Assembly (NCBI GenBank): GCA_964476895.1
Contig: CAYZCS010000007.1
Coordinates: forward strand, 1 to 24,000
Direction: 5' to 3'
DNA: 24,000 nt
Source: an uncultured Candidatus Saccharibacteria bacterium
GTDB taxonomy: Bacteria; Patescibacteriota; SICC01
Part shown: piece by piece, positions 540-14,647 of the stretch
How positions within the stretch are numbered: the stretch's first letter is position 1
Layout: every line of letters starts with the position of its first letter
Notes under the pieces: generated by a model
Databases searched by the model: none
What the model saw: only the letters and a program-made list of their open reading frames with translations
Told to the model about the DNA's origin: nothing
Made by a program: the position numbers and the translations under genes

Positions 540-552
540 CGAACGGTTCCGG

Positions 553-626
553 TGGGCAATGCTGGACTCGAACCAGCGACCTCCGCAATGTGAATGCGGC
601 GCTCTAGCCGACTGAGCTAATTGCCC
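553..626 (-). tRNA. tRNA-Val (anticodon CAC)
   Basis: The reverse complement folds as a 74-nt cloverleaf: GGGCAAT-TA-GCTC-AGTCGGCTA-GAGC-G-CCGCA-TTCACAT-TGCGG-AGGTC-GCTGG-TTCGAGT-CCAGC-ATTGCCC-A. The T-loop is GTTCGAGT. Only CC of the CCA end is encoded. Confidence 0.95.
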
Positions 627-1258: not shown

Positions 1259-1653
1259 ATACGGAACGTCCAGAACTTGTTACCGGCGAAGTTCGAGAGC
1301 ACGACCAGGCCGTTGGCGATCACCTGCGCGGGAAATGCGTGCAGTCCGACGACCTCGACCAGGAGCACCAGTCCGGCCAGGTTGAGCGAGAGTCCGATCG
1401 TCTGGACCGTCGCGAACTTGGCGAGCTTCCGGACGCGGTGTACCCCTGCCCGGAACGTCCAGATCCGGTTCAGCGTGTAGCTGTTCAGCGTAGCGACGAC
1501 GAAGGCGATGATCGCCGCGACGATGTAGAAGACGCCGAACCAGAGCAGGGCACCGTACACCGCGAAGTTGATGGCGGTGGTCATCAGGCCGACCAGTACG
1601 AATTTCACGAACTGGCGGGCGTGTCGGTCCTGGGTCAGCATGGCGATGTTCAT
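1255..1653 (-). CDS. GtrA family membrane protein
   Basis: 132 aa with 4 TM segments. FVKFVLVG..TTAINF start and NKFWTFR C-terminal motif. Confidence 0.8.
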   Translation of the reverse strand: MNIAMLTQDRHARQFVKFVLVGLMTTAINFAVYGALLWFGVFYIVAAIIAFVVATLNSYTLNRIWTFRAGVHRVRKLAKFATVQTIGLSLNLAGLVLLVEVVGLHAFPAQVIANGLVVLSNFAGNKFWTFRI

Positions 1654-1655
1654 GG

Positions 1656-2165
1656 TTACGGCGCGGTTTCCGGCTCGAATTCGGCCGGCCGAACCTTTCC
1701 ATCATATCGCACGACGACCCGCTTCCGTTCGAACCGGAGCACCGCCTCGCGGGGAAGGATCAGCTCCCGCGCCGCGGGGCGCCATAGCGGCGGTACGATA
1801 TGTAATTTCACGAGGAAGTGCCCCTCGGTTTCGATCGTACATTCCTTGACCCGTCCCAGCCGCTTACCGGACTCTGAGACCGCGACAGTGCCGAGCAGCC
1901 GCATCGGTCGTTCGAGCAGCGGCTTGATCGCCGGCAGGTCGTCGGCGGCCTGTGCGACATCCGCACCACTGGCACCGACCGCGCCCTCAAGATACGAGGA
2001 AACGTCCACGGTCGAGAGCAGGTGCTTCGGCCGTTCCTTCAGACGGTATGCCACGATCTTGCCCCGTGCGGCATCGAAGACCGGCCCGTCGATCGTGCCG
2101 AGCGGCGTACCGTCCGGCATCGCGATGACCGGCCGTCCGATGATCTCGGTAAGCAGGAGCAGCAT
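1656..2165 (-). CDS. PRC-barrel domain protein
   Basis: Two PRC-barrel-like halves (EIIGRPVIAMPDGTPLGTIDGPVFD... and LLGTVAVSESGKRLGRVKECTIE). The start was chosen at the internal ATG at 2165 because the longer ORF would overlap tlyA. Confidence 0.6.
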   Translation of the reverse strand: MLLLLTEIIGRPVIAMPDGTPLGTIDGPVFDAARGKIVAYRLKERPKHLLSTVDVSSYLEGAVGASGADVAQAADDLPAIKPLLERPMRLLGTVAVSESGKRLGRVKECTIETEGHFLVKLHIVPPLWRPAARELILPREAVLRFERKRVVVRYDGKVRPAEFEPETAP

Positions 2166-6367: not shown

Positions 6368-7642
6368 TTGTCAAACCCAGCCCGCTCTGCGAAGATAATG
6401 GGCTCCTCGAAGAACCTCCTCATGACTTCCCTCATGGATTCCGAACGCGAGAACGGGTCGAGGCCATTGACGCCCGACCGGCTTCAAGAAGTGGCGGGCG
6501 GGCTGGTGGAACACGAGACGATGGAGCGGGTGCTGGCCGACACGCATTGGGACTACCAACGTCGGGATACGAGCGCCGGAACCGCATACGTGTTCGCCCG
6601 TCCGGTCTCGTTGCTCGAATCGATGCGGATCAACCCGGCGGATTACCAGAACCATCGTCACACACTGGGAATCAGCGAAACGGACGGGGAAATGCGCCTG
6701 ACCTACCTGGTGCTGCGTGACGTGCATTCGAATGAACTCGGCATGCTTCCGAGGATCGAGTCCGCGTTGCGTGGTCGCGGTCGGATCACCCGTCGTGACT
6801 TCTCGGACGACGAGCTGGCGTTCGTCGACCGCATCTGGCTGCCGAGCGCCGAGATCGGCGAAGCCCTGGGAATCAGCACCGGTCACGCAGAGGCGAAGGT
6901 CACGGACATCCTCCGCCCGCGCCGCTTGGCCAACCGAACGGAGCTGCTGACCCTCGGGCTCAAGGAGGGATTCCTGAACCCCGATCTGGAAGCATGGCGC
7001 CGTCCGGTCGGGCTGTCGCCCTTGCAAGCTTCCGTGCTGCGCCGATCACACCTTGAGATAGCGCCCATGGCCCATGAGCTAGGAATAAAGACCAAGTCCG
7101 CCAGTAACGCTCTTGCCCAGTGTTATCGGAAGACCGGGGCCCGGATTCGCAGAGAGCTGATCCTGATCGGGTTGGCCAACGGTCAGTGCTGCTTGGATGA
7201 ACTGCCGACACCGGAAATGGAACCCAAGCTCACCTCCTTAAGACAGGAGATGCTGGCTCTGGTCGACCGATCGTACGAAGCCATTGCGGAGCAGAGCGGA
7301 GATAGCAAGAGTACGATCTCGAACCGGTATGTGCGCCTGTATGAAACGCTCGGACTCTCGAACATGAACGAGCTGGTGGCGTACGCGTTCCGGGAAGGGC
7401 ACATCGACAACCGGATCGATGCCCGTTTGGCGGACGTGTTCTCGCGGCGGCAACGGCAAGTCGTCGAGCGTCTCATGGACGATAATGACGAAATCGCCGC
7501 GTCGCTCGACATCAGTAAGTCCGTGGTCGTGCATCACCTTGTCGAAGCTAAGCGCCGCGCTGAGGTCGATTCGCGGTCCGGGCTCGTTGCGTACGGGCTC
7601 CGGGCGGGACTGATCGATCCGGAAACGGCCAGGCGTGGCTAG
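6368..7642 (+). CDS. Transcriptional regulator with four tandem LuxR/GerE-type HTH modules and an N-terminal domain of unknown function
   Basis: Four units of about 60 aa (aa 145-204, 216-273, 288-346, 358-417). Each follows the pattern L/F-S/T-x-x-x-x-x-h...EIA..LGIS..TV......h..KLG..NR.ELh..h...G.h. The start is uncertain: TTG at 6368 or ATG at 6398. Confidence 0.75.
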   Translation: MSNPARSAKIMGSSKNLLMTSLMDSERENGSRPLTPDRLQEVAGGLVEHETMERVLADTHWDYQRRDTSAGTAYVFARPVSLLESMRINPADYQNHRHTLGISETDGEMRLTYLVLRDVHSNELGMLPRIESALRGRGRITRRDFSDDELAFVDRIWLPSAEIGEALGISTGHAEAKVTDILRPRRLANRTELLTLGLKEGFLNPDLEAWRRPVGLSPLQASVLRRSHLEIAPMAHELGIKTKSASNALAQCYRKTGARIRRELILIGLANGQCCLDELPTPEMEPKLTSLRQEMLALVDRSYEAIAEQSGDSKSTISNRYVRLYETLGLSNMNELVAYAFREGHIDNRIDARLADVFSRRQRQVVERLMDDNDEIAASLDISKSVVVHHLVEAKRRAEVDSRSGLVAYGLRAGLIDPETARRG

Positions 7643-8748
7643 GCCCCGTGCCGGACGTGGATGACGTCGCCGTCCTGCACGATATAGTGCTTGCCTTCGG
7701 CGCGGAGCTTGCCGGTATCGCGCGCGGCTGATTCGCTCCCGGCGGCGATGAAGTCGTCGTAGGCGATGACCTCGGCACGGATGAACTTGGCCTCGAAGTC
7801 ACCGTGGATGGTGCCGGCGGCCCGCGGGGCGCTGCTGCCGCGGCGGACCGGCCAGGCGCGGACCTCCTTCGGTCCGGCGGTGTAGAAGGTAATCAGGTCG
7901 AGCAGGTCATAGCCGGCGCGGATGAAGCGGTTCAGGTTCGGCTCCGCGATCCCGACCGATTCCAAGAACTCCCCACGTTCTTCCGGCGGGAGCGAACCGA
8001 TCTCCGCCTCGATCTTCGCGGACACCGCGACGATGCCGAATCCCTGCTCCTCGGCCCAGCGCTCGGCCTCCTGGTAGAAGGAGCTGGTCCCCGGCTTGGC
8101 CACGTCGTGTTCCCCGACGTTCGCCACCACCAGCATCGGCTTGGCGGTGATGAAGGGGAGCGGGCCACCCTTTGCCAACGTCTTCCGTTCGTCGCCGTCG
8201 AAGGTCACGCTGTGCGCCGGTTTCTCGGCGTCGAACGCCGCACCGATCCGCTTGAGCAGCTTCAAGCGCTCGGCGGTATCGGGATTGCCCTTGGCCTCCT
8301 TCTCCAGCGGCCCGATCAGCTTCTCGTACGTCTGCTGGTCGGCGAGGATCAGCTCGAGCAGGACGGTGCGCAGGTCGTCCACCGGACCGAGCCGTCCCGC
8401 CACGTGGGTGACCTGCGGGTCCTCGAAGCAGCGGGCCACCAGCGCGATCGCGCTGGTCTCGCGGATGTGGGCCAGGAACTTGTTGCCGAGGCCCTCGCCC
8501 TTGCTCGCACCGCCGACCAGTCCCGCGATGTCGGTGAACGTCACGGTGGCCGGAACGACCTTTTCCGGCTCCACCAGTTCGGCAAGCTTCGCGAGCCGCG
8601 GATCGGGGACGTCAACCACACCCTCGTTCGGCTCGATCGTGGTGAACGGCCGGTTGGCGCTCTCGGCCTGTGCCCGTTCGAGCAGGGCGTTAAAGAGCGT
8701 GGACTTGCCGACGTTCGGAAGCCCGACGATACCGATGGAGAGGGACAT
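7639..8748 (-). CDS. ychF: Redox-regulated ATPase YchF (Obg-family GTPase/ATPase)
   Basis: GIVGLPNVGKSTLFNALL P-loop, full YchF-length architecture and a TGS-like C-terminus. Confidence 0.95.
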   Translation of the reverse strand: MSLSIGIVGLPNVGKSTLFNALLERAQAESANRPFTTIEPNEGVVDVPDPRLAKLAELVEPEKVVPATVTFTDIAGLVGGASKGEGLGNKFLAHIRETSAIALVARCFEDPQVTHVAGRLGPVDDLRTVLLELILADQQTYEKLIGPLEKEAKGNPDTAERLKLLKRIGAAFDAEKPAHSVTFDGDERKTLAKGGPLPFITAKPMLVVANVGEHDVAKPGTSSFYQEAERWAEEQGFGIVAVSAKIEAEIGSLPPEERGEFLESVGIAEPNLNRFIRAGYDLLDLITFYTAGPKEVRAWPVRRGSSAPRAAGTIHGDFEAKFIRAEVIAYDDFIAAGSESAARDTGKLRAEGKHYIVQDGDVIHVRHGA

Positions 8749-8908
8749 GCATTCAGTGTACGTGATGGTTGACTTTTCGCATGGTTAATAGGAATATACC
8801 TAGTCGCACTTTTCCATACAGGGAGGTTCCCGGCGACAAGGCAATCGGAATGCTTTGTCCCCGGGAATCTCACAGGGAGAGCTCCGTGGAGAAAAAGGAG
8901 AAGATCGC

Positions 8909-9901
8909 ATGCGCCACGAGTATGGGTACAGACGGATTTCGACCAGACGGGTCATCGGTTGGATCGGTCTGGGTATCGGGCTGATCCTGTTGATCCTCCT
9001 GCTGTTCGCGTGGCCGTTTAAGAAGGCGCCCGCCGATCAGTGGGCGGTCAGCTACGGCGGCGGCCCGTTCGAGAGCCAGCACTACCAGGGCACGTTCGAG
9101 CCCGGCTCAAACCTCCGGTTCAACGGGTGGTTCGACAAGTGGTTCGAGTATCCGGCGACGCTTCGTTCCTACATCGTCTCGAAGCAAGGCGGTGAGGGCG
9201 ATGTGCCGGGCAGCGACTCGATCCGCGCCACCACCAAGGACCAGGTGGAGGTGGAGTTCGAGATCACCACGAACTTCAAGCTCAACACCAACCTGCTCCG
9301 GAAGTTCCATGAGCAGTTGGGGCTGAAGTTCGAGGCCTGGGAGGACGATGGCTGGAACAAGATGCTTCGGGACTCGTTCCGGCAGCAGCTTGAGAACAGC
9401 CTGCAGTCCATCGTGCGCGAGTTCGACGTCGCCGAGGTCTGGGCCAGTGAGCGAGCGCTCGAGGAGATCCAGGATCGGCTCGGAGTCGAGCTCAATGAGA
9501 AGATCACGTCGCAGCTCGGGGACGAGTACTTCTGCGGACCGACTTTCCAGCACGGGCGAGCGGTCCAGGTACCGGTCAAGGAGCAGGTCGACGGCGAGAT
9601 CGTCACAAGGATGGAGCGAACGGATTGTCCGCCGCTCCAAGTAAAGATCAAGCGTCCGACCATCCCGCAGAAGGTGAAGCGTGCCTTCGAGGCTAACCGG
9701 ACCTCCGAGATCCTGGTGGTTACCAAGGAGAACGAGATCGAGCAGCGCCGGAAGGAGCGGGAGTCGATCAAGCAGCTCCGGAACGTGCTCTCACCGCAGT
9801 ACGTACTCCTCAGGGCCATCGAGGAGGGCAAGATCGACTTCTGGGTTCTGCCCGGGAATAACGGTCTCAACCTCCAGACCCCGACGAGAGCGGCTCCATA
9901 G
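8909..9901 (+). CDS. Membrane-anchored SPFH (band 7 / prohibitin-like) domain protein
   Basis: N-terminal TM helix followed by an SPFH-like pattern (..IRATTKDQVEVEFEITTNFKL..). The ATG at 8909 is preceded by an AAGGAG Shine-Dalgarno. The family call is by eye only. Confidence 0.55.
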   Translation: MRHEYGYRRISTRRVIGWIGLGIGLILLILLLFAWPFKKAPADQWAVSYGGGPFESQHYQGTFEPGSNLRFNGWFDKWFEYPATLRSYIVSKQGGEGDVPGSDSIRATTKDQVEVEFEITTNFKLNTNLLRKFHEQLGLKFEAWEDDGWNKMLRDSFRQQLENSLQSIVREFDVAEVWASERALEEIQDRLGVELNEKITSQLGDEYFCGPTFQHGRAVQVPVKEQVDGEIVTRMERTDCPPLQVKIKRPTIPQKVKRAFEANRTSEILVVTKENEIEQRRKERESIKQLRNVLSPQYVLLRAIEEGKIDFWVLPGNNGLNLQTPTRAAP

Positions 9902-10021
9902 CTGAGCGACACTACGGCCCCATAGTCTGGCCTCTCACGAGGTGGCCTGAAACAACAGACGCCAGGGGGATTCCGGCAGGTTAATGCGAGATATCATATC
10001 TCCATTGCCTGCCGCCCCCGA

Positions 10022-10070
10022 CCCTCTCGCATAGCGACTGATGAGACCCGGGAAGTTCGGGTCGAAAGGG
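10022..10070 (+). ncRNA. Hammerhead ribozyme-like element, copy 1 (stems I and II capped, stem III open, i.e. type III topology)
   Basis: CCCUC / UCGC-AUA-GCGA (stem I) / CUGAUGA / GACCCG-GGAAGUU-CGGGUC (stem II) / GAAA / GGG. All invariant core positions are present. The predicted cleavage site is after C10026. Confidence 0.7.
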
Positions 10071-10167
10071 AAGCACGAATGCCGCGTTGGTAGAATACGG
10101 CGCTGGTATGATGTACTTGCTCGCCGTACCTTACCGCAAACAGTCAGACCCGTCGGAAGGAATGTAC

Positions 10168-10524
10168 ATGCAACGACTCTACGACAGTGACGTCATCCGT
10201 TCGATGTCGATGTACTGTGAGGATCCGCTGGTGCGGCTCATGACGCTCGCCATGGTACTGATGGGAGTCACGGTCACGGGCATACTGGTCGCCGTGACCC
10301 CCGATGCAAGCGCCTGGGGTATCCTGGCGCTCTACGTCTTCATCGGCATGCTGATCGTCGCGCCGAAGCACCTGTGGATGCTGTTCACCTACTGCGGCAC
10401 GTTGTTCACAGGGATCATGATCGAGCCACAGGGACCGTTTGTCATGGTGCTTCTGGCGCTGCTCTGCTTTGTCCTCGCGGCATTCGCCCGGAAGCGATTG
10501 CCTGATCAGCGGACCGTCACCTGA
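10168..10524 (+). CDS. Hypothetical integral membrane protein (about 4 TM)
   Basis: Hydrophobic ORF. The ATG at 10168 is preceded by GGAAGGA. The ORF track starts it at TTG 10087, so the start is uncertain. Confidence 0.5.
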   Translation: MQRLYDSDVIRSMSMYCEDPLVRLMTLAMVLMGVTVTGILVAVTPDASAWGILALYVFIGMLIVAPKHLWMLFTYCGTLFTGIMIEPQGPFVMVLLALLCFVLAAFARKRLPDQRTVT

Positions 10525-10592
10525 ACGACCGATAACGGACCTCGAACCCGCGCGCAGTGGTCCGTGTGGCTAACCAGCCATGTCGCGGGAGC

Positions 10593-10630
10593 GGCCATCA
10601 TGTACTTTAGTATCTGGTGGCCTTTTCTTT
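10593..10630 (+). terminator. Rho-independent terminator of the 4-TM protein gene
   Basis: Stem GGCCATCA (10593-10600) with TGGTGGCC (10615-10622), including one G-U pair, followed by TTTTCTTT. Confidence 0.65.
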
Positions 10631-10642
10631 ATGGTCCGGATG

Positions 10643-10671
10643 TTGATTATTTAGCTTAACTGTAGTATAAA
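10643..10671 (+). promoter_or_regulatory. Candidate sigma70-type promoter driving hammerhead copy 2 and the metzincin gene
   Basis: TTGATT (10643-10648), a 17-nt spacer, then TATAAA (10666-10671), within an AT-rich patch of an otherwise GC-rich region. Confidence 0.5.
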
Positions 10672-10702
10672 ATCAAGCTACGGAAACACCGTGACACGGT
10701 CG

Positions 10703-10751
10703 CCGTCGCGCATAGCGCCTGATGAGACCCGGGAAGATCGGGTCGAAACGG
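10703..10751 (+). ncRNA. Hammerhead ribozyme-like element, copy 2
   Basis: CCGUC / GCGC-AUA-GCGC / CUGAUGA / GACCCG-GGAAGAU-CGGGUC / GAAA / CGG. The predicted cleavage site is after C10707. It lies about 25 nt downstream of the predicted transcription start. Confidence 0.7.
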
Positions 10752-10759
10752 TATCAACA

Positions 10760-11836
10760 ATGCATAGCGAAGCCAGTCCCAATCACGATTCGCAACCCGA
10801 GTCCACGGTCCTGGACCGCATGCGGTCATCGCGGGTCGTGAAAACCGTCTTGGGTGCCGCGTGTGCGGGCGTGCTCGCGAAATGCAGTGGTCCGTCGGCA
10901 CCACCCGAAATGAACGAAGTCCGCTCACCGCGCGCGGTATTCGAACCGCCCGTTCCGGCTGCTCCCGACCTTCCGTACGTAGCGGAGAGCCGCCCGGTCG
11001 AGTACTACGGCGGCCTGTCAGCGTATCGATCCATGAGGGTCAACAGGATCGGTCGGGAACTGTTCGAAGACGCCAGGATGGCGCGCGGATTCGAGATCGA
11101 ACGGGAGATCGAACAGTGGAACCTGGACCGGATGGGATTTCTACTGGTGCCCGCCGAGCTGCGCGGCCCCCTCGAAGCGTCCGTGGACGCGGAGCTGCGG
11201 ATGGAAGAGTTCTTTCTCAGCAAGGGCCTTCCGCAATATTCCGTGATCGATTACCTGGGCTGGCGGACGAGCGCTGAGATGATCGATGAACCTTTGCCGT
11301 TACCGGAAGTCATGCACGGGCTAAGCCAGCTGGAGCTGGACTATCTGGAAAGCCTGGACCGGGAACGTGAGGCGGCGATGCTCCAGGCGGAGATCATCGC
11401 CGAGGAGATCTACGGACCCACGCCCTTGCCTGCCGATCCGGAAAAGCGGGCTCAGATTCCCACGGTTTCCGTCCGGCTGGAGGGGTCTCCGAAGGTGGAG
11501 CGGGCGGTCAGCGAGGCGCTTGAGCGGTGGCAGGAGCGCGGCTACGACCCTCCGTGCGACGGTGACATCGAGCTCTGGGGCTCCAATCGGCTGTCTCGGC
11601 CGAAAGCGACCGCCCAGGCCCCGTTGTCGCCAAGGTTCGGAGAGCCTTGCTATATCAATTTTCGGGTTGATGAGATTATGCAGAGTTCGGAAGACCATTT
11701 GGCCAACGTTTCCGAGCATGAAATCGGCCACAACTTGGGATTCTGCCACTCGAAACAGGAAGATTCCATCATGTACAGCAAGCGCGAAGAAACAGAAGGA
11801 TGCGAGGTTCCTCACCCGAGTTGGACGGTCGAGTAA
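10760..11836 (+). CDS. Metzincin (matrixin/M10-like) zinc metalloprotease, probably secreted
   Basis: HEIGHNLGFCH matches HExxHxxGxxH, and is followed by an SIMY Met-turn. A signal-peptide-like segment is present (MRSSRVVKTVLGAACAGVLA). The start is ambiguous: ATG 10760 or ATG 10820. GTG 10691 would run through the ribozyme motif. Confidence 0.75.
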   Translation: MHSEASPNHDSQPESTVLDRMRSSRVVKTVLGAACAGVLAKCSGPSAPPEMNEVRSPRAVFEPPVPAAPDLPYVAESRPVEYYGGLSAYRSMRVNRIGRELFEDARMARGFEIEREIEQWNLDRMGFLLVPAELRGPLEASVDAELRMEEFFLSKGLPQYSVIDYLGWRTSAEMIDEPLPLPEVMHGLSQLELDYLESLDREREAAMLQAEIIAEEIYGPTPLPADPEKRAQIPTVSVRLEGSPKVERAVSEALERWQERGYDPPCDGDIELWGSNRLSRPKATAQAPLSPRFGEPCYINFRVDEIMQSSEDHLANVSEHEIGHNLGFCHSKQEDSIMYSKREETEGCEVPHPSWTVE

Positions 11837-11861
11837 GAGGTGGCAATCAGCGGACAGGGAG

Positions 11862-11907
11862 AACGGGCCGGTCTTCATCGAGGTATCGAGGAAGGGTCCG
11901 GCCCGTT
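11862..11907. terminator. Hairpin between convergent genes, possibly a bidirectional terminator
   Basis: Perfect 10-bp stem, AACGGGCCGG (11862-11871) with CCGGCCCGTT (11898-11907). The loop is large and the T-tract is only moderate (TGTAGTTAT). Confidence 0.5.
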
Positions 11908-11911
11908 GTAG

Positions 11912-12193
11912 TTATCGGTCCCGTGGGTCATAACCGTTGTCGTGGTAACGACCGATCGCGCCTCCCAGTGCATGAAAGAAAGGGATGATGTTAAGTACCG
12001 AAACCGCGACGAAAAGACCAATAATGGTGAATCCCAGAATGAACGTCAGCAAGGCGCCGATGTATGTCTCCGGGAAAGCCAGCAGCAGGAGTTCGGCCGC
12101 CGGATAGGTCGCCAGCATGGGCCCGAAGCAGTAGAGACCATTCCGGAGCACCGCACGGTACTCCGGTACGGCGAACAGCGGCAATGAGCGCAT
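11912..12193 (-). CDS. Hypothetical small membrane protein (93 aa, 2-3 TM)
   Basis: ATG preceded by AAAGGAG with 5-nt spacing. Hydrophobic composition. Confidence 0.55.
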   Translation of the reverse strand: MRSLPLFAVPEYRAVLRNGLYCFGPMLATYPAAELLLLAFPETYIGALLTFILGFTIIGLFVAVSVLNIIPFFHALGGAIGRYHDNGYDPRDR

Positions 12194-12262
12194 GAGTGCT
12201 CCTTTGGTCGGGAACGGGACGTGATGTGAATGTGAGCGGCGAACTTATTGTACGCTGAATGC

Positions 12263-12595
12263 ATGGCTTCTTTCGACGACTTCCAGAAGCTCGACATCCG
12301 GGTCGGCGAGATCGTCTCGGCGGAGGAATTCCCGGAGGCGCGAAAGCCCAGCTACAAACTGACGATCGACTTGGGGCCGGGGCCCGGCACCAAGCGGTCG
12401 TGCGCGCAGCTTACGGCAAACTACCCGCGGGAGTCGCTCGCGGGCAAGCGGGTGCTAGCGGTGGTGAACTTCCCGCCGCGGCAGATCGGCCCGGCGGTCT
12501 CGGAGGTACTGACGCTCGGCGTGCCGGACGCGAAGGGCGAGTGCGTCCTGCTCACCCCGGACGCGGACGTGCCGTTGGGTGGGAAAGTGTATTAG
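12263..12595 (+). CDS. csaA: tRNA-binding domain protein (CsaA/YgjH-like)
   Basis: FDDFQKLDIRVGEIV.AE.FPEARKPSYKL.IDLG....RS.AQ...Y....L.G..V..V.NFPPRQIG...SEVL pattern of the EMAP/CsaA OB fold. Confidence 0.8.
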   Translation: MASFDDFQKLDIRVGEIVSAEEFPEARKPSYKLTIDLGPGPGTKRSCAQLTANYPRESLAGKRVLAVVNFPPRQIGPAVSEVLTLGVPDAKGECVLLTPDADVPLGGKVY

Positions 12596-12604
12596 CGGGT
12601 GGGT

Positions 12605-13108
12605 CTAATTAAGCCAGTCTAAGAAACGCTCGACATCCCGTTTTGATTTCAGGTGCACTACTTTTTCCGAATGTTTCGTAAGAAATCTTTGTGTGTTCTT
12701 CAGGCGATCGCCGGCTAGTTGGAACATCGCTTGAAAATGACCGAGGTCGTTCCACCAGTTCAGTTCCGGGTGACGATCTTTCTTGGATATTCTTTTCGCA
12801 TGTCGAATTACACGTCGCCATAGCGGGATATCCAGGAACACGATGATGTCAGCCCGCTCCGCGATCTCGGGTTGCACGCGGCGATACAATCCATCGCTGA
12901 CCCAGATCGGCTTTTTGATGAATTTCGCTACCTCGGCCTCTATCTTTCTTCGGACGCGCTCTTTCTCTTTTTCGCTTTTCGCATTGTGACCGCCCTCCGA
13001 GAACCAAATCCGGTCGATTTCCAGGCGAGGGATCCCGGCATGCCGAGCAATCCGCTTGGCGAGCGTCGTCTTCCCACTCGCGCTAAGGCCGAGGATAGAG
13101 ATCCTCAT
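12605..13108 (-). CDS. P-loop NTPase / adenylate-kinase-like protein (topology modulation FlaR-like)
   Basis: MRISILGLSASGKTTLAKRIA Walker A motif in a protein of about 167 aa. GC content is visibly lower than in the neighbouring genes. ATGA overlap with the recombinase gene. Confidence 0.75.
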   Translation of the reverse strand: MRISILGLSASGKTTLAKRIARHAGIPRLEIDRIWFSEGGHNAKSEKEKERVRRKIEAEVAKFIKKPIWVSDGLYRRVQPEIAERADIIVFLDIPLWRRVIRHAKRISKKDRHPELNWWNDLGHFQAMFQLAGDRLKNTQRFLTKHSEKVVHLKSKRDVERFLDWLN

Positions 13109-14094
13109 GACTTCCCATGAAACTTCTTATGCACCTCCCGCAGCTGCGGGTTGGTGACGTGCGTGTAGACCTGCGTGGTCGTGATCGAGGCGTGGCCGAG
13201 CATCTGCTGCACGCTCCGGATGTCGGCACCGCTGCGGAGCAGGCCCGTCGCGAACGAGTGCCGCAGCGTGTGCGGGGTCACGTCCTTCACCAGGCCCGCC
13301 GCCGTCGTGTACTTCTTCAGGATCCGCTGCACGGACCGCGGCGTGAGCCGGAGGTCCCCGCCGTCAGCTTCGCGGCCTTTCGGCTCGTCTGAACGGGTGA
13401 GGAGCGGCCGCATCGCGGCGCGGCGCTTGCCGAGGTAGGCGGCCAGGTATCCCGCGGCCCGCTCGGAGAGGAAGACGATCCGCGGCTTGTCGCCCTTGCC
13501 GCGCACCATGAACTCGCCGCGTTCGGCGTTCACCTGGTCGGTGTCGAGGGCGCACAGCTCGGACACGCGCAGCCCGGTGGAGTAGAGGAGCTCGAGGATC
13601 GCGCGATCGCGGAGGCTCGTGAACGTGTCCTTGGTACCGGCGGATTCCAGGAGCCGCTCGACTTCCTCGCCGGTCAGGAACTCGACGCTCCGCCGTTCGG
13701 TCTTCCCGAGTTCGATCTTGTCGGCGGAGAGGGTCTTCACGTCCCGCCGCGCCAGGTATTTGAGGAGCGCCCGGATCGCGATCACGTGGTAGTTCTGCGT
13801 GAGCCGCGTAAGTTCGCCGCCGTTCTGGTTCGGCTGGCGGTTCAGCCAGAGCCGGAAGCTCCGGACCGCGTCGATCGTGATGCCCTGCGGCGCGGTCACG
13901 CCGTGCCCCGCGCCCCAGCGCGCGAACCGGCTGAGATAGTGGTCATAATTTCGGAGTGTGAGCCGCGAGAGCTGCCGCTCCACCTCGCAGTATTCGAGGA
14001 ATTGCGTGATGTACTCCGCGAGTTCGGTCTTCGGGCGGGGCGGGGGCTTAACGCCCGGCGCGGGAGTGTGGCCAGATGTCGCTTTTTCTGACAT
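13105..14094 (-). CDS. Tyrosine site-specific recombinase, XerC/XerD type
   Basis: N-terminal SAM-like core-binding domain and C-terminal catalytic motifs (...HTLRHSFATGLLRSGADIRSVQQMLGHASITTTQVYTHV). Confidence 0.9.
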   Translation of the reverse strand: MSEKATSGHTPAPGVKPPPRPKTELAEYITQFLEYCEVERQLSRLTLRNYDHYLSRFARWGAGHGVTAPQGITIDAVRSFRLWLNRQPNQNGGELTRLTQNYHVIAIRALLKYLARRDVKTLSADKIELGKTERRSVEFLTGEEVERLLESAGTKDTFTSLRDRAILELLYSTGLRVSELCALDTDQVNAERGEFMVRGKGDKPRIVFLSERAAGYLAAYLGKRRAAMRPLLTRSDEPKGREADGGDLRLTPRSVQRILKKYTTAAGLVKDVTPHTLRHSFATGLLRSGADIRSVQQMLGHASITTTQVYTHVTNPQLREVHKKFHGKS

Positions 14095-14161
14095 GTCCTA
14101 TATTGTGCGACATTTAGACGGGGAAAGCGAGCAATAATGTTGGGCCGGTAGTATCCAGCGT

Positions 14162-14647
14162 CTAGCGAAGGCTTTCCACCACGGACGTCACTTCCTCGAT
14201 CCTGTCCGCCGGCAACGCCTCTTGGTTCAGGCCCATCTCGTGCTCAAGCGAAAGATTCGCGTAACCCTCGACGAGCCAGGCCTCCAGTTGGCCGGTGTCG
14301 CCCGCTTCGCGTGCTCGCTGTATGTCCTCGATGGAGAACGGTGGGTGATACCGGTGCTCCCGCACGATCCCGTGGTCATCCCGCGTGAAGACCTGCTGCT
14401 CAGTGGAGTCCGCTACTCTCCTGATGATGCGGTAGAAACGGCTGCCTTCGACCTCCACGGGCTGCAGGGTGACCGGGCTGAAGTCCCGGTCGACGAGCGC
14501 TAGCTCCGGTCCGATCAAGCCATTCGAAATGCTGTGGGAATACTCCTGCCACTTGGCGTCGAACGCGCCATCGAGCCGTTCGACGGCCGCTTCCTGTTCG
14601 GCGAGCCGCCGTAGTTCGTCGTTCTCATGATTCTCTTCCCTGGTCAT
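14162..14647 (-). CDS. Hypothetical acidic cytoplasmic protein (161 aa)
   Basis: Long ORF with normal composition. No recognisable family. Confidence 0.6.
   Translation of the reverse strand: MTREENHENDELRRLAEQEAAVERLDGAFDAKWQEYSHSISNGLIGPELALVDRDFSPVTLQPVEVEGSRFYRIIRRVADSTEQQVFTRDDHGIVREHRYHPPFSIEDIQRAREAGDTGQLEAWLVEGYANLSLEHEMGLNQEALPADRIEEVTSVVESLR

What the first reader, a model, noticed from the sequence alone, without database searches (positions are those of the whole stretch)
10703..10751. Second hammerhead core between a strong promoter and the metzincin gene (copy 2)
The architecture is the same as copy 1: CCG-U-C (C17 is C10707), GCGC/AUA/GCGC, CUGAUGA (10719-10725), GACCCG/GGAAGAU/CGGGUC, GAAA (10745-10748), CGG. 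It lies about 25-30 nt downstream of the predicted start of a TTGATT-N17-TATAAA promoter. Self-cleavage would therefore remove a short triphosphorylated leader. The mRNA would be left with a 5'-OH end capped by the folded ribozyme, which could alter its stability or translation. The six-frame track's longest ORF (GTG at 10691) runs straight through the element, so automated annotation would probably bury it inside a CDS.
Basis: partly seen in the sequence, partly recalled or inferred. Interest (0 to 1): 0.85.

Follow-up and report, generated by a model that had tools for sequence, protein, structure and literature searches.

The report
Hammerhead ribozyme before a protease gene
The flagged 49 bases are a genuine type III hammerhead self-cleaving RNA motif in the leader of a protease gene. 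It belongs to a hammerhead subfamily, not found in the papers I searched, that is scattered through the chromosomes of ultra-small Patescibacteria/Saccharibacteria, which offers a new handle on what bacterial ribozymes are for.

Summary
Window 10703-10751 (+) carries every defining hammerhead feature, and cleavage is predicted between C10707 and G10708. Copy 1 lies at 10022-10070.

It is not a chance match. Two independent pattern scans recovered 64 distinct relatives, almost all from Saccharibacteria/Patescibacteria genomes. All three stems covary: 98% of cells are paired and 12 of 15 pairs show compensatory changes. U16.1 is invariant and H17 is never G. Both loops are conserved (NUA and GGAAGNU).

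Rfam's type III model scores copy 2 at only 33.9 bits against a cut-off of 48.5. None of the 21 relatives in 17 other loci reached a curated threshold either. No relative was found in 2.9 million viral contigs.

Family members lie in intergenic DNA, usually just after a stable hairpin downstream of a co-oriented, often housekeeping, gene. Some are followed directly by a terminator.

Copy 2 here lies about 28 nt after a promoter-like box and 8 nt before the matrixin ATG. In the closest relative, a 230-aa gene and a hairpin separate that promoter from the ribozyme. The promoter-proximal layout is therefore probably secondary.

Most likely role: cis-processing of the mRNA. Cleavage itself is untested.

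The parts
10703..10751 (+). Hammerhead ribozyme copy 2 (type III). Layout: stem III 5' strand 10703-10706; cleavage site C10707|G10708; stem I hairpin 10708-10718; core CUGAUGA 10719-10725; stem II hairpin 10726-10744; GAAA 10745-10748; stem III 3' strand 10749-10751, with an optional G10702-U10752 wobble pair.
   Evidence: Sequence. Rfam Hammerhead_3 at 33.9 bits. Own covariance model at 77.0 bits. Minimum-energy fold equals the hammerhead. Family covariation.
10643..10671 (+). Promoter-like box TTGATT-N17-TATAAA in a 37% GC island. The predicted transcription start is near 10678-10680.
   Evidence: Single match in the window against 0.04 expected. GC dip. Conserved in L009 8988-9039. Not listed by the strict sigma-70 consensus scan.
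10678..10707 (+). Predicted short 5' leader of about 28-30 nt. Cleavage would release it with a 2',3'-cyclic phosphate. It contains a small hairpin, CCGUG-ACA-CACGG.
   Evidence: Inferred from the promoter position and the C17 site. Fold.
10760..11836 (+). Matrixin-type (Peptidase_M10) metalloprotease gene with a signal-peptide-like N-terminus. Its ATG lies 8 nt after stem III.
   Evidence: Pfam PF00413. NCBI product of 358 aa starting at ATG 10760. Synonymous-rich divergence from L009 starts at this ATG.
10593..10630 (+). Intrinsic terminator of the upstream small membrane-protein gene: GGCCAUCA...UGGUGGCC followed by UUUUCUUU. It separates copy 1 and copy 2 into different transcription units.
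   Evidence: Fold z-score -4.0. Conserved in L009.
10022..10070 (+). Hammerhead copy 1 (CCC-U-C | UCGC AUA GCGA | CUGAUGA | GACCCG GGAAGUU CGGGUC | GAAA | GGG), with cleavage after C10026. It differs from copy 2 by compensatory changes in stems I and III.
   Evidence: Minimum-energy fold. 76.2 bits.
9915..10021 (+). Conserved structured element directly upstream of copy 1 ('type A'). It has a GGCC...GGCC hairpin plus a long hairpin, GGGGGAUUCCGGCA...UGCCGCCCCC. It is an example of the stable hairpin that precedes most family members.
   Evidence: Shared with L010, L031, L036, L041, L047 and L050. Consensus fold. Upstream 70-nt fold energy -34.3 kcal/mol.
10168..10524 (+). Small multi-pass membrane protein gene of unknown function, flanked by the two hammerheads.
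   Evidence: ORF. No Pfam match. Homologue in L009 8149-8514 starts at the equivalent ATG.

Best explanation
Window 10703-10751 encodes an active-type, canonical type III hammerhead ribozyme. It belongs to a lineage-specific subfamily found in Patescibacteria, mainly Saccharibacteria. The subfamily has a 4-bp stem I capped by NUA, a 6-bp stem II capped by GGAAGNU, and a 4-8-bp open stem III.

In this window the proposed sequence of events is as follows.
1. The ribozyme is transcribed from the promoter-like box at 10643-10671 as part of the matrixin mRNA leader.
2. It folds co-transcriptionally and cuts itself between C10707 and G10708.
3. The 5' fragment is a leader of about 28 nt carrying a 5' triphosphate and a 2',3'-cyclic phosphate. 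The 4-5-bp stem III is short enough for it to dissociate.
4. The mRNA then starts with a 5'-OH directly at the base of the stem I hairpin, followed by the stem II hairpin. The AUG lies in an unstructured stretch 12 nt after GAAA.

The effect is to give the protease mRNA one defined, structured 5' end whatever lies upstream: a promoter here, another cistron in the nearest relative. That uncouples its stability and translation from the upstream RNA.

Across the family the same module lies immediately after a stable hairpin downstream of a co-oriented gene. Cleavage there would also leave the upstream RNA ending in a hairpin plus a cyclic phosphate.

What is shown: motif identity, evolutionary conservation of the fold and core, genomic placement, and the indel relative to L009. 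What is inferred: actual cleavage, the transcription start, and the direction of any effect on stability or translation.
For: - Canonical core and helices at the stated coordinates. The isolated element folds as a hammerhead.
- Rfam Hammerhead_3 aligns end to end.
- Two independent pattern scans gave 73 hits, 64 of them distinct. In those, 98.2% of cells are paired, 12 of 15 pairs have double changes, and slid controls pair in 25-48% of cells. The gapless 38-sequence alignment agrees.
- Positions that neither scan constrained behave as hammerhead rules demand: U16.1 in 63 of 63, and H17 is C in 36, U in 25, A in 2 and G in 0.
- N7 varies between U and C, as that position allows.
- The orthologous element in L009 keeps the fold, with a C-G to U-G change and loop changes, and keeps the identical 8-nt spacer to the ATG.
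- The 70 nt upstream of family members are strongly structured: median z -3.1 and 74% below -2, against -0.84 downstream and -0.48 for a segment 200-270 nt upstream of stem III; Wilcoxon p about 1e-8.
- 12 of 62 members have an intrinsic terminator within 110 nt downstream.
- Flanking genes are ordinary chromosomal genes: SufS-like aminotransferase, PBP1, M23 peptidase, RadC, SAICAR synthetase and SPFH.
- The predicted 3' product starts flush with the stem I hairpin.
- Published work already proposes that clustered bacterial hammerheads process polycistronic mRNAs (PMC3088659, PMC6765202).
Against: - No cleavage assay or transcript-end data exist for this element.
- The score is below Rfam's gathering threshold (33.9 against 48.5 bits). 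Copy 1 was not reported by cmscan at all.
- No Watson-Crick loop-loop pseudoknot could be found, so fast cleavage at physiological Mg2+ is assumed only from loop conservation.
- No Shine-Dalgarno sequence lies between the ribozyme and ATG 10760.
- A 5'-OH end can be destabilising. From my own knowledge, the glmS ribozyme product is degraded by RNase J1 in Bacillus. The sign of the effect is therefore open.
- The promoter call rests on an E. coli-type consensus in a phylum whose promoters are not characterised, and the stricter scan did not list it.
- The upstream-hairpin partner typical of the family is largely missing for this copy: upstream fold only -14.6 kcal/mol.
Confidence: 0.7

Rival explanations
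1. The module mainly serves the upstream transcript. In this reading 'hairpin + hammerhead' is a 3'-end maturation or intercistronic cleavage cassette. Copy 2 in this window is a leftover: an indel of about 740 bp (L009 9040-9787), most simply a deletion in the window lineage, removed the upstream 230-aa gene and hairpin. The ribozyme still cuts but has little function of its own in the protease leader.
For: - Nearly all members follow a co-oriented gene and a stable hairpin. About a fifth are followed directly by a terminator rather than a gene.
- In L009 the same promoter drives a 230-aa gene, then an 8-bp-stem hairpin, then the ribozyme.
- In L009 the extra segment is flanked by a CGGT direct repeat, of which the window keeps one copy, which fits a microhomology deletion.
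- Downstream of copy 1 a conserved TGGTATGAT (extended -10-like) sequence suggests that the next gene may have its own promoter.
Against: - The ribozyme-to-ATG spacing (8 nt) and sequence are identical in both genomes, and no promoter can fit between them. The protease mRNA must therefore pass through the ribozyme in both.
- The core is intact.
- With only two genomes, the direction of the indel cannot be proven.
Confidence: 0.2
2. The hammerheads belong to a dispersed selfish or mobile repeat, or to a circular-RNA-producing unit like retrozymes and viroid-like RNAs. In that case the two copies 681 nt apart would excise and circularise the intervening RNA.
For: - Units of about 100-150 nt, made of an upstream structure plus the hammerhead, recur nearly identically at several loci of one genome, and similarity stops at the 3' end of the ribozyme (L009 against L029; L031 against L036).
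- Pairs 0.7-2 kb apart occur in the window, L009, L015, L020 and L046.
- The two copies in L020 have compatible stem III strands.
Against: - Stem III of copy 1 (CCC/GGG) and copy 2 (CCG/CGG) are not cross-compatible, so a circle would not rebuild a ribozyme. The same holds for the pairs in L009, L015 and L046.
- A terminator and a promoter lie between the two window copies.
- Pfam and ORF screens of the genes around the ribozymes (window 6368-14647, L009, and a sample of flanking genes) found no reverse transcriptase or transposase; the only recombinase is a XerC/D-type tyrosine recombinase about 1.3 kb downstream.
- No viral contig hits.
- Orthologous positions are conserved across diverged genomes, for example SPFH followed by the hammerhead in the window and in L049.
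Confidence: 0.06
3. The RNA fold is conserved but is not constitutively catalytic. Cleavage might be gated by a protein, a ligand or the upstream structure, or the fold might serve only as a protein-binding or stability element.
For: - The invariant GGAAGNU loop and the UA of loop I are more conserved than simple capping loops need to be.
- Structured elements directly abut stem III and could compete with it.
- In longer transcripts the minimum-energy fold does not always keep the hammerhead.
Against: - All catalytic-core positions are strictly kept and H17 is never G. This pattern is expected only if chemistry is under selection.
- Upstream structures are not homologous between loci, so there is no single aptamer.
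Confidence: 0.04
4. The motif is a chance match or is simply coding sequence of a longer protease precursor that starts at GTG 10691.
For: The frame is open from GTG 10691, and one automated caller used it (381 aa).
Against: - Covariation in 64 sequences lying next to unrelated genes.
- GTG 10691 is not conserved, and the 3 of 3 substitutions are non-synonymous but structure-neutral.
- NCBI's call starts at ATG 10760.
Confidence: 0.01

Closest known systems
Hammerhead ribozyme, type III (Rfam RF00008 Hammerhead_3)
   Same: The same 11 core nucleotides plus the A15.1-U16.1 pair, an NUH cleavage triplet (GUC), G10.1-C11.1, an open stem III, and capped stems I and II. The Rfam consensus also has a short stem I with a uUa triloop.
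   Different: - Stem I has only 4 bp.
- Stem II has 6 bp with an invariant GGAAGNU loop.
- Copy 2 scores below the curated threshold (33.9 against 48.5 bits), and no member in 17 further loci reached gathering.
- The hosts are Patescibacteria chromosomes rather than viroids, satellites, plants or prophages.
Clustered bacterial hammerheads flanking small ORFs (Perreault et al. 2011, PMC3088659; reviewed in PMC6155905 and PMC6765202)
   Same: Two ribozymes bracket a small ORF of unknown function. The proposed role is processing of multi-gene transcripts.
   Different: - The published cases are mostly linked to prophages or integrases and are often type II.
- This family gave no hit in 2.9 million viral contigs.
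- It lies next to housekeeping genes.
- It has a constant upstream-hairpin partner.
RiboJ-type synthetic ribozyme insulators (sTRSV hammerhead plus hairpin; own knowledge)
   Same: A promoter-proximal type III hammerhead removes a variable 5' leader, so the mRNA gets a fixed, structured 5'-OH end.
   Different: This one is natural. The accompanying hairpin lies upstream of the cut, and so stays with the 5' product, rather than downstream.
glmS ribozyme in 5' UTRs (PMC6765202)
   Same: A self-cleaving RNA in a bacterial mRNA leader, whose 5'-OH product determines the fate of the mRNA.
   Different: glmS has a different fold, needs GlcN6P, and is tied to a single gene. This family has no conserved gene partner and no aptamer.
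Retrozymes and viroid-like circular RNAs with type III hammerheads
   Same: Type III topology and tandem copies on one strand.
   Different: Stem III strands of neighbouring copies are not interchangeable. A terminator and a promoter lie between the copies. There are no repeat units and no reverse transcriptase.

Membership tests
Hammerhead ribozyme (type III) | Core strand C3-U4-G5-A6-N7-G8-A9 | tested here: met
   CUGAUGA at 10719-10725. In relatives only N7 varies, between U and C. The other positions were fixed by the search patterns.
Hammerhead ribozyme (type III) | Core strand G12-A13-A14, with A15.1 paired to U16.1 | tested here: met
   GAAA at 10745-10748 and U10706. U16.1 was not constrained by either scan and is U in 63 of 63 members.
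Hammerhead ribozyme (type III) | The cleavage-site nucleotide H17 is not G (NUH rule) | tested here: met
   C10707. Across the family: C 36, U 25, A 2, G 0.
Hammerhead ribozyme (type III) | Three helices around the core, supported by covariation, with G10.1-C11.1 closing stem II | tested here: met
   98.2% of cells paired; 12 of 15 pairs with compensatory changes; slid controls 25-48%. The gapless alignment gives the same picture.
Hammerhead ribozyme (type III) | Type III topology: stems I and II capped by loops, stem III open | tested here: met
   Sequence and fold.
Hammerhead ribozyme (type III) | Tertiary contact between loop I and loop II, needed for fast cleavage in vivo | tested here: inconclusive
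   Both loops are strongly conserved (NUA and GGAAGNU), which suggests a contact. On inspection, the two conserved loop sequences show no Watson-Crick complementarity.
Hammerhead ribozyme (type III) | Score at or above Rfam RF00008's gathering threshold | tested here: not met
   33.9 against 48.5 bits. Copy 1 was not reported. There were no gathering-level hammerhead hits in 17 loci holding 21 members. This is a curation threshold, not a biochemical criterion.
Hammerhead ribozyme (type III) | Site-specific self-cleavage giving 2',3'-cyclic phosphate and 5'-OH ends | not testable with these tools
   Needs in vitro transcription or RNA-end sequencing.
Prophage-associated clustered bacterial hammerheads | Location in phage or prophage DNA, or next to phage genes | tested here: not met
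   0 hits in viral contigs with a family-specific pattern, and only chance hits with a broad pattern. Neighbours are housekeeping genes. A XerC/D-type recombinase lies 1.3 kb downstream, but within a conserved syntenic block.
Retrozyme or viroid-like circular-RNA unit | Neighbouring ribozyme copies are interchangeable, so the excised RNA can rebuild a hammerhead and circularise | tested here: not met
   The stem III strands of adjacent copies are incompatible in the window, L009, L015 and L046. They are compatible only in L020.

The most novel reading that the evidence does not exclude
Patescibacteria, which have very small genomes, may use a chromosomally encoded, non-phage 'stable hairpin + hammerhead' cassette as a general, protein-independent mRNA maturation signal. 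At least 3-6 copies per genome of about 1 Mb lie between ordinary genes. Each cut would leave the upstream mRNA ending in a protective hairpin with a cyclic phosphate. The downstream mRNA would begin with a 5'-OH flush against a hairpin. If so, this would be the first case where a hammerhead family has a definable housekeeping role across a bacterial lineage.
Probability: 0.3. Interest if true: 0.75.

Novelty: new member of a known kind. Interest (0 to 1): 0.55.

Why it matters
The biological role of bacterial hammerheads is an acknowledged open question. Only the glmS ribozyme is well understood, and most other examples are tied to phage DNA (PMC6765202, PMC6155905).

This element shows that curated models, and at least one gene caller, miss a whole hammerhead subfamily in Candidate Phyla Radiation bacteria. 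The subfamily has three useful properties:
- It is chromosomal.
- It lies next to housekeeping genes.
- It has a constant structural partner, an upstream hairpin, and sometimes a downstream terminator.

Those regular features turn 'what is it for?' into testable predictions about mRNA 3' and 5' end formation and stability. They also give a ready covariance model for annotating these genomes.

For this particular window the practical consequence is modest. The protease starts at ATG 10760, not GTG 10691, and its mRNA is probably processed at C10707.

Tried and rejected
- **Rfam at gathering thresholds.** On the window and on 17 related loci it found only tRNAs. A whole-window E-value scan lost the hammerhead to the speed filters. 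A weak CRISPR-DR61 hit at 10656-10687 (E 0.52) is the AT-rich promoter box, and I dismissed it.
- **Broad hammerhead pattern in viral contigs.** It returned 8 hits, none with proper stems. A family-specific pattern returned 0 hits, so I dropped the phage link.
- **A common flanking gene family.** All-against-all BLAST of upstream and downstream ORFs gave only orthologous pairs, with no shared family.
- **A Watson-Crick pseudoknot between loops I and II.** I found none, and saw no obvious covariation between the variable loop positions on inspecting.
- **Circular-RNA or retrozyme reading.** Rejected because stem III strands of neighbouring copies are incompatible and a terminator and promoter lie between the copies.
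- **Translation through the element from GTG 10691.** Rejected. In-frame stop codons cannot settle this, because in both genomes the frame stays open by chance in GC-rich DNA.
- **Protein homologues of the matrixin.** Only two clusters exist, so only one orthologous locus (L009) was available. P0001's own contig could not be fetched.
- **Literature.** Searches for hammerhead or self-cleaving ribozymes together with Saccharibacteria, Patescibacteria, TM7 or candidate phyla radiation found nothing relevant. This covers only the open-access library searched.

Full report

Yes.
- CCG 10703-10705, U 10706, C17 = C10707
- stem I GCGC/AUA/GCGC, 10708-10718
- CUGAUGA, 10719-10725
- stem II GACCCG/GGAAGAU/CGGGUC, 10726-10744
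- GAAA, 10745-10748
- CGG, 10749-10751

On its own, the 55-nt element folds into the three-way junction as both its minimum-energy and centroid structure.

Rfam's type III hammerhead model aligns to 10700-10754 over its full length. The score is 33.9 bits (E 7e-6 for the 251 nt searched), below the curated cut-off of 48.5. The default gathering scan of the window reports only a tRNA.

A generic CTGATGA-N10-40-GAAA search finds three places in the window against 0.25 expected. Two of them are the hammerheads. Copy 1 is at 10022-10070. It differs from copy 2 by compensatory changes: the first pair of stem I is U-A instead of G-C, and a stem III pair is C-G instead of G-C.

**2. Related sequences**

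The matrixin protein has only two clusters of relatives. The second, at 83% identity, lies on a 638-kb contig of a Patescibacteria metagenome-assembled genome (locus L009). The region is syntenic: S6-SSB-S18-EF-P, a LuxR-like gene, YchF, then variable genes, then matrixin, a tRNA-binding protein, an AAA protein and XerC.

L009 carries both hammerheads.
- The copy 1 orthologue has CUGACGA. Position N7 is the one core position that is free to vary.
- The copy 2 orthologue has a C-G to U-G change in stem II and loop changes. It keeps the identical 8-nt spacer to the ATG.

A scan of one genome per species used a pattern that fixed the core, part of stem I and the base of stem II. It returned 41 loci. 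Thirty-four are clear relatives, nearly all Saccharibacteria or other Patescibacteria, with GC content from 36 to 65%. Seven are chance hits.

A second, independent pattern was anchored on loop II and left stem I free. It returned 38 metagenome loci, of which 33 are relatives. In all of them stem I is again a short hairpin. It has 4 bp in most, 5 bp in three, and a tetraloop in one. The loop is NUA in nearly all; exceptions are one ACA loop (L064), one UCA loop (L058) and the CGUA tetraloop (L065).

**3. Covariation**

In the gapless 38-sequence alignment, stems I and II pair in 100% of cells, as do the four inner pairs of stem III. Twelve of 17 tested pairs show double changes.

In the combined model-based alignment there are 73 hits, 64 of them distinct. 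There, 98.2% of cells pair and 12 of 15 pairs have compensatory changes. Sliding the partner columns drops pairing to 25-48%. One caveat is that this alignment was fitted to the model.

Positions that neither search pattern constrained follow hammerhead rules. U16.1 is U in 63 of 63 members. H17 is C in 36, U in 25, A in 2 and never G.

Loop II (GGAAGNU) was unconstrained in the first scan and loop I (NUA) in the second. Both are nevertheless conserved. This points to a tertiary contact, although I found no Watson-Crick pseudoknot.

With the covariance model built from the family, the window has exactly two hits, at 77.0 and 76.2 bits. The next best place scores 8.8 bits.

**4. Is the family already catalogued?**

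None of the 21 members in 17 loci reach the gathering score of any Rfam hammerhead family.

Full-text searches combined hammerhead or self-cleaving ribozymes with Saccharibacteria, Patescibacteria, TM7 or candidate phyla radiation. They found nothing relevant. This covers only the open-access library, so it is not proof of novelty.

**5. Context in this window**

Upstream of copy 2 lies the small membrane-protein gene (10168-10524). It is followed by a strong intrinsic terminator at 10593-10630 (z -4.0). Next comes an AT-rich box, TTGATT-N17-TATAAA, at 10643-10671. That pattern occurs once in the window against 0.04 expected, in a 37% GC island. The stricter sigma-70 consensus scan did not list it.

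The protease ATG at 10760 is 8 nt past stem III, with no Shine-Dalgarno sequence in between.

The evidence favours ATG 10760 as the start:
- NCBI's product is 358 aa, starting at ATG 10760.
- A Logan gene call is 381 aa, starting at GTG 10691. Automated annotation can therefore bury the ribozyme in a CDS, as predicted.
- From the ATG onward, the window and L009 differ by 77 synonymous and 62 non-synonymous codons.
- Within the hammerhead, the three differences are all non-synonymous in the GTG frame but structure-neutral.
- GTG 10691 itself reads CCC in L009.

**6. The promoter-proximal layout is not conserved**

Window 10528-10685 aligns with L009 8865-9039, which covers the terminator, the promoter box and the first bases of the transcript. 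Window 10697-10800 aligns with L009 9788-9891 at 93% identity. Between those two blocks L009 has about 740 extra bases.

The extra bases carry a 230-aa gene and a hairpin with an 8-bp stem that abuts the ribozyme. The upstream 70 nt there fold at -32.5 kcal/mol, against -14.6 in the window.

In L009 the extra segment is flanked by a CGGT direct repeat, of which the window keeps one copy. A microhomology deletion in the window lineage is therefore the simplest reading. With only two genomes, the direction cannot be proven.

In both genomes the protease mRNA must be transcribed through the ribozyme.

**7. Family-wide context**

Members lie in intergenic DNA. In the AT-rich genomes, where long ORFs are trustworthy, 14 of 16 have a co-oriented ORF ending 50-320 nt upstream. 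About 9 of 16 have a co-oriented ORF starting within 300 nt downstream. The rest face a convergent gene (my count; ORF-based and therefore approximate).

The 70 nt immediately upstream of stem III fold much better than shuffled versions. The median z-score is -3.1 and 74% fall below -2. The flanks show -0.84 downstream and -0.48 for a segment 200-270 nt upstream of stem III (Wilcoxon p about 1e-8). These hairpins are not homologous between most loci.

Twelve of 62 members have an intrinsic terminator within 110 nt downstream, often touching the ribozyme.

Flanking genes are diverse and often housekeeping: a SufS-like aminotransferase, PBP1, an M23 peptidase, RadC, SAICAR synthetase and SPFH. 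No gene family is shared.

No member is present in 2.9 million viral contigs. That contrasts with the phage link reported for other bacterial hammerheads (PMC3088659, PMC6155905).

Positions can be orthologous across diverged genomes. For example, SPFH, a hairpin, the hammerhead and a small membrane protein occur in that order both in the window and in L049.

Pairs 0.7-2 kb apart that bracket one to three genes occur in the window, L009, L015, L020 and L046. This matches the published description of clustered hammerheads flanking small unknown ORFs (PMC6155905).

**8. Mechanism**

Shown: a canonical, evolutionarily maintained type III hammerhead lies in the protease leader.

Inferred: it folds co-transcriptionally and cuts between C10707 and G10708. 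The leader of about 28 nt leaves with a 2',3'-cyclic phosphate, because stem III has only 4-5 bp. The mRNA then begins with a 5'-OH flush against the stem I hairpin, followed by the stem II hairpin. The AUG region stays open.

That gives the protease mRNA the same 5' end whether the upstream RNA is a short leader (this window) or another cistron (L009). The logic is the same as in synthetic RiboJ insulators (own knowledge). From my own knowledge, a flush 5' hairpin is also generally protective against 5'-end-dependent RNases.

The glmS precedent cuts the other way. There the 5'-OH product is degraded (PMC6765202), so the sign of the effect here is open.

The family-wide hairpin partner suggests that the cut also matures the upstream RNA's 3' end, leaving a hairpin plus a cyclic phosphate.

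**9. Rival explanations**

- **Relic of a 3'-end cassette.** The window copy may be what remains after the indel. This is plausible, and I put it at about 0.2.
- **Mobile repeat or circular RNA.** Some 'upstream structure + hammerhead' units recur nearly identically within a genome. However, stem III strands of neighbouring copies are incompatible in 4 of 5 pairs, a terminator and promoter separate the window copies, and no reverse transcriptase or transposase was found in the regions screened. I put this at about 0.06.
- **Gated or non-catalytic fold.** About 0.04.
- **Coding sequence or a chance match.** Effectively excluded.

**10. Verdict**

The element is a new member of a known ribozyme class.

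Its wider interest is the subfamily it reveals: Patescibacteria-wide, chromosomal, non-phage, hairpin-associated, and missed by the curated models and thresholds. Cleavage and function remain to be tested.

Noticed in passing
window 9915-10021 (+): A conserved structured element of about 105 nt lies directly upstream of hammerhead copy 1. It has a GGCC...GGCC hairpin and a long hairpin closed by GGGGG/CCCCC with an apical GAGAU...AUCUC stem. It is shared with L010, L031, L036, L041, L047 and L050 and has no Rfam match. A different conserved upstream element (AAAAAACCACGGCAAG...CUUGCCCGCCGAGAAUAG...) precedes the ribozyme in L009, L021, L029 and L042.
   Followed up: partly
window 10096-10135 (+); L009 8070-8112: The 5' region of the small membrane-protein gene has a hairpin whose stem covaries between the window and L009. 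Its loop keeps CUGGUAUGAU.UAC, and ACCUUACCG follows. The loop sequence also reads as an extended -10 promoter (TGGTATGAT). Whether it is a promoter or an RNA element is unresolved.
   Followed up: partly
window 10686-10697 against L009 9040-9787: An indel of about 740 bp separates the two genomes. In L009 it carries a 230-aa gene with a cold-shock-like N-terminus, and it is flanked by a CGGT microhomology. The region between YchF and the matrixin is otherwise variable too: SPFH plus one gene here, five small genes in L009. In both cases synteny resumes at a hammerhead.
   Followed up: partly
window 10691-11836 (+): Two public gene calls exist for the protease: NCBI's 358 aa from ATG 10760 and Logan's 381 aa from GTG 10691. 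The longer one translates through the ribozyme.
   Followed up: yes
L051 728-792, L058 2139-2203, L079 1201-1265: A more divergent subgroup of the same hammerhead family has a 5-bp stem I (for example GUGGU-CUA-ACCAC), stem II GAGAUG/CGUCUC, and in one case A at position 17. Scores are 46-51 bits with the family model.
   Followed up: no
L017, L025 and L035 (record titles): Three bins labelled Pseudomonadales or Iamiaceae carry typical family members on contigs of 43% and 63% GC. This may mean mis-binned Patescibacteria contigs.
   Followed up: no
L010 about 1620-1656 (-), L031, L055, L067, L046: In several loci an intrinsic terminator starts within 0-10 nt of the ribozyme's 3' end. Cleavage there would release a small RNA of about 80-90 nt (hammerhead body plus terminator) with a 5'-OH end.
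   Followed up: partly
window 6368-7642 (+): A 424-aa protein has a C-terminal LuxR/GerE helix-turn-helix domain and several weaker helix-turn-helix-like repeats. It is conserved next to YchF in L009.
   Followed up: no
window 551-626 (-): tRNA-Val (CAC). It is the only Rfam gathering-level RNA in the window.
   Followed up: yes
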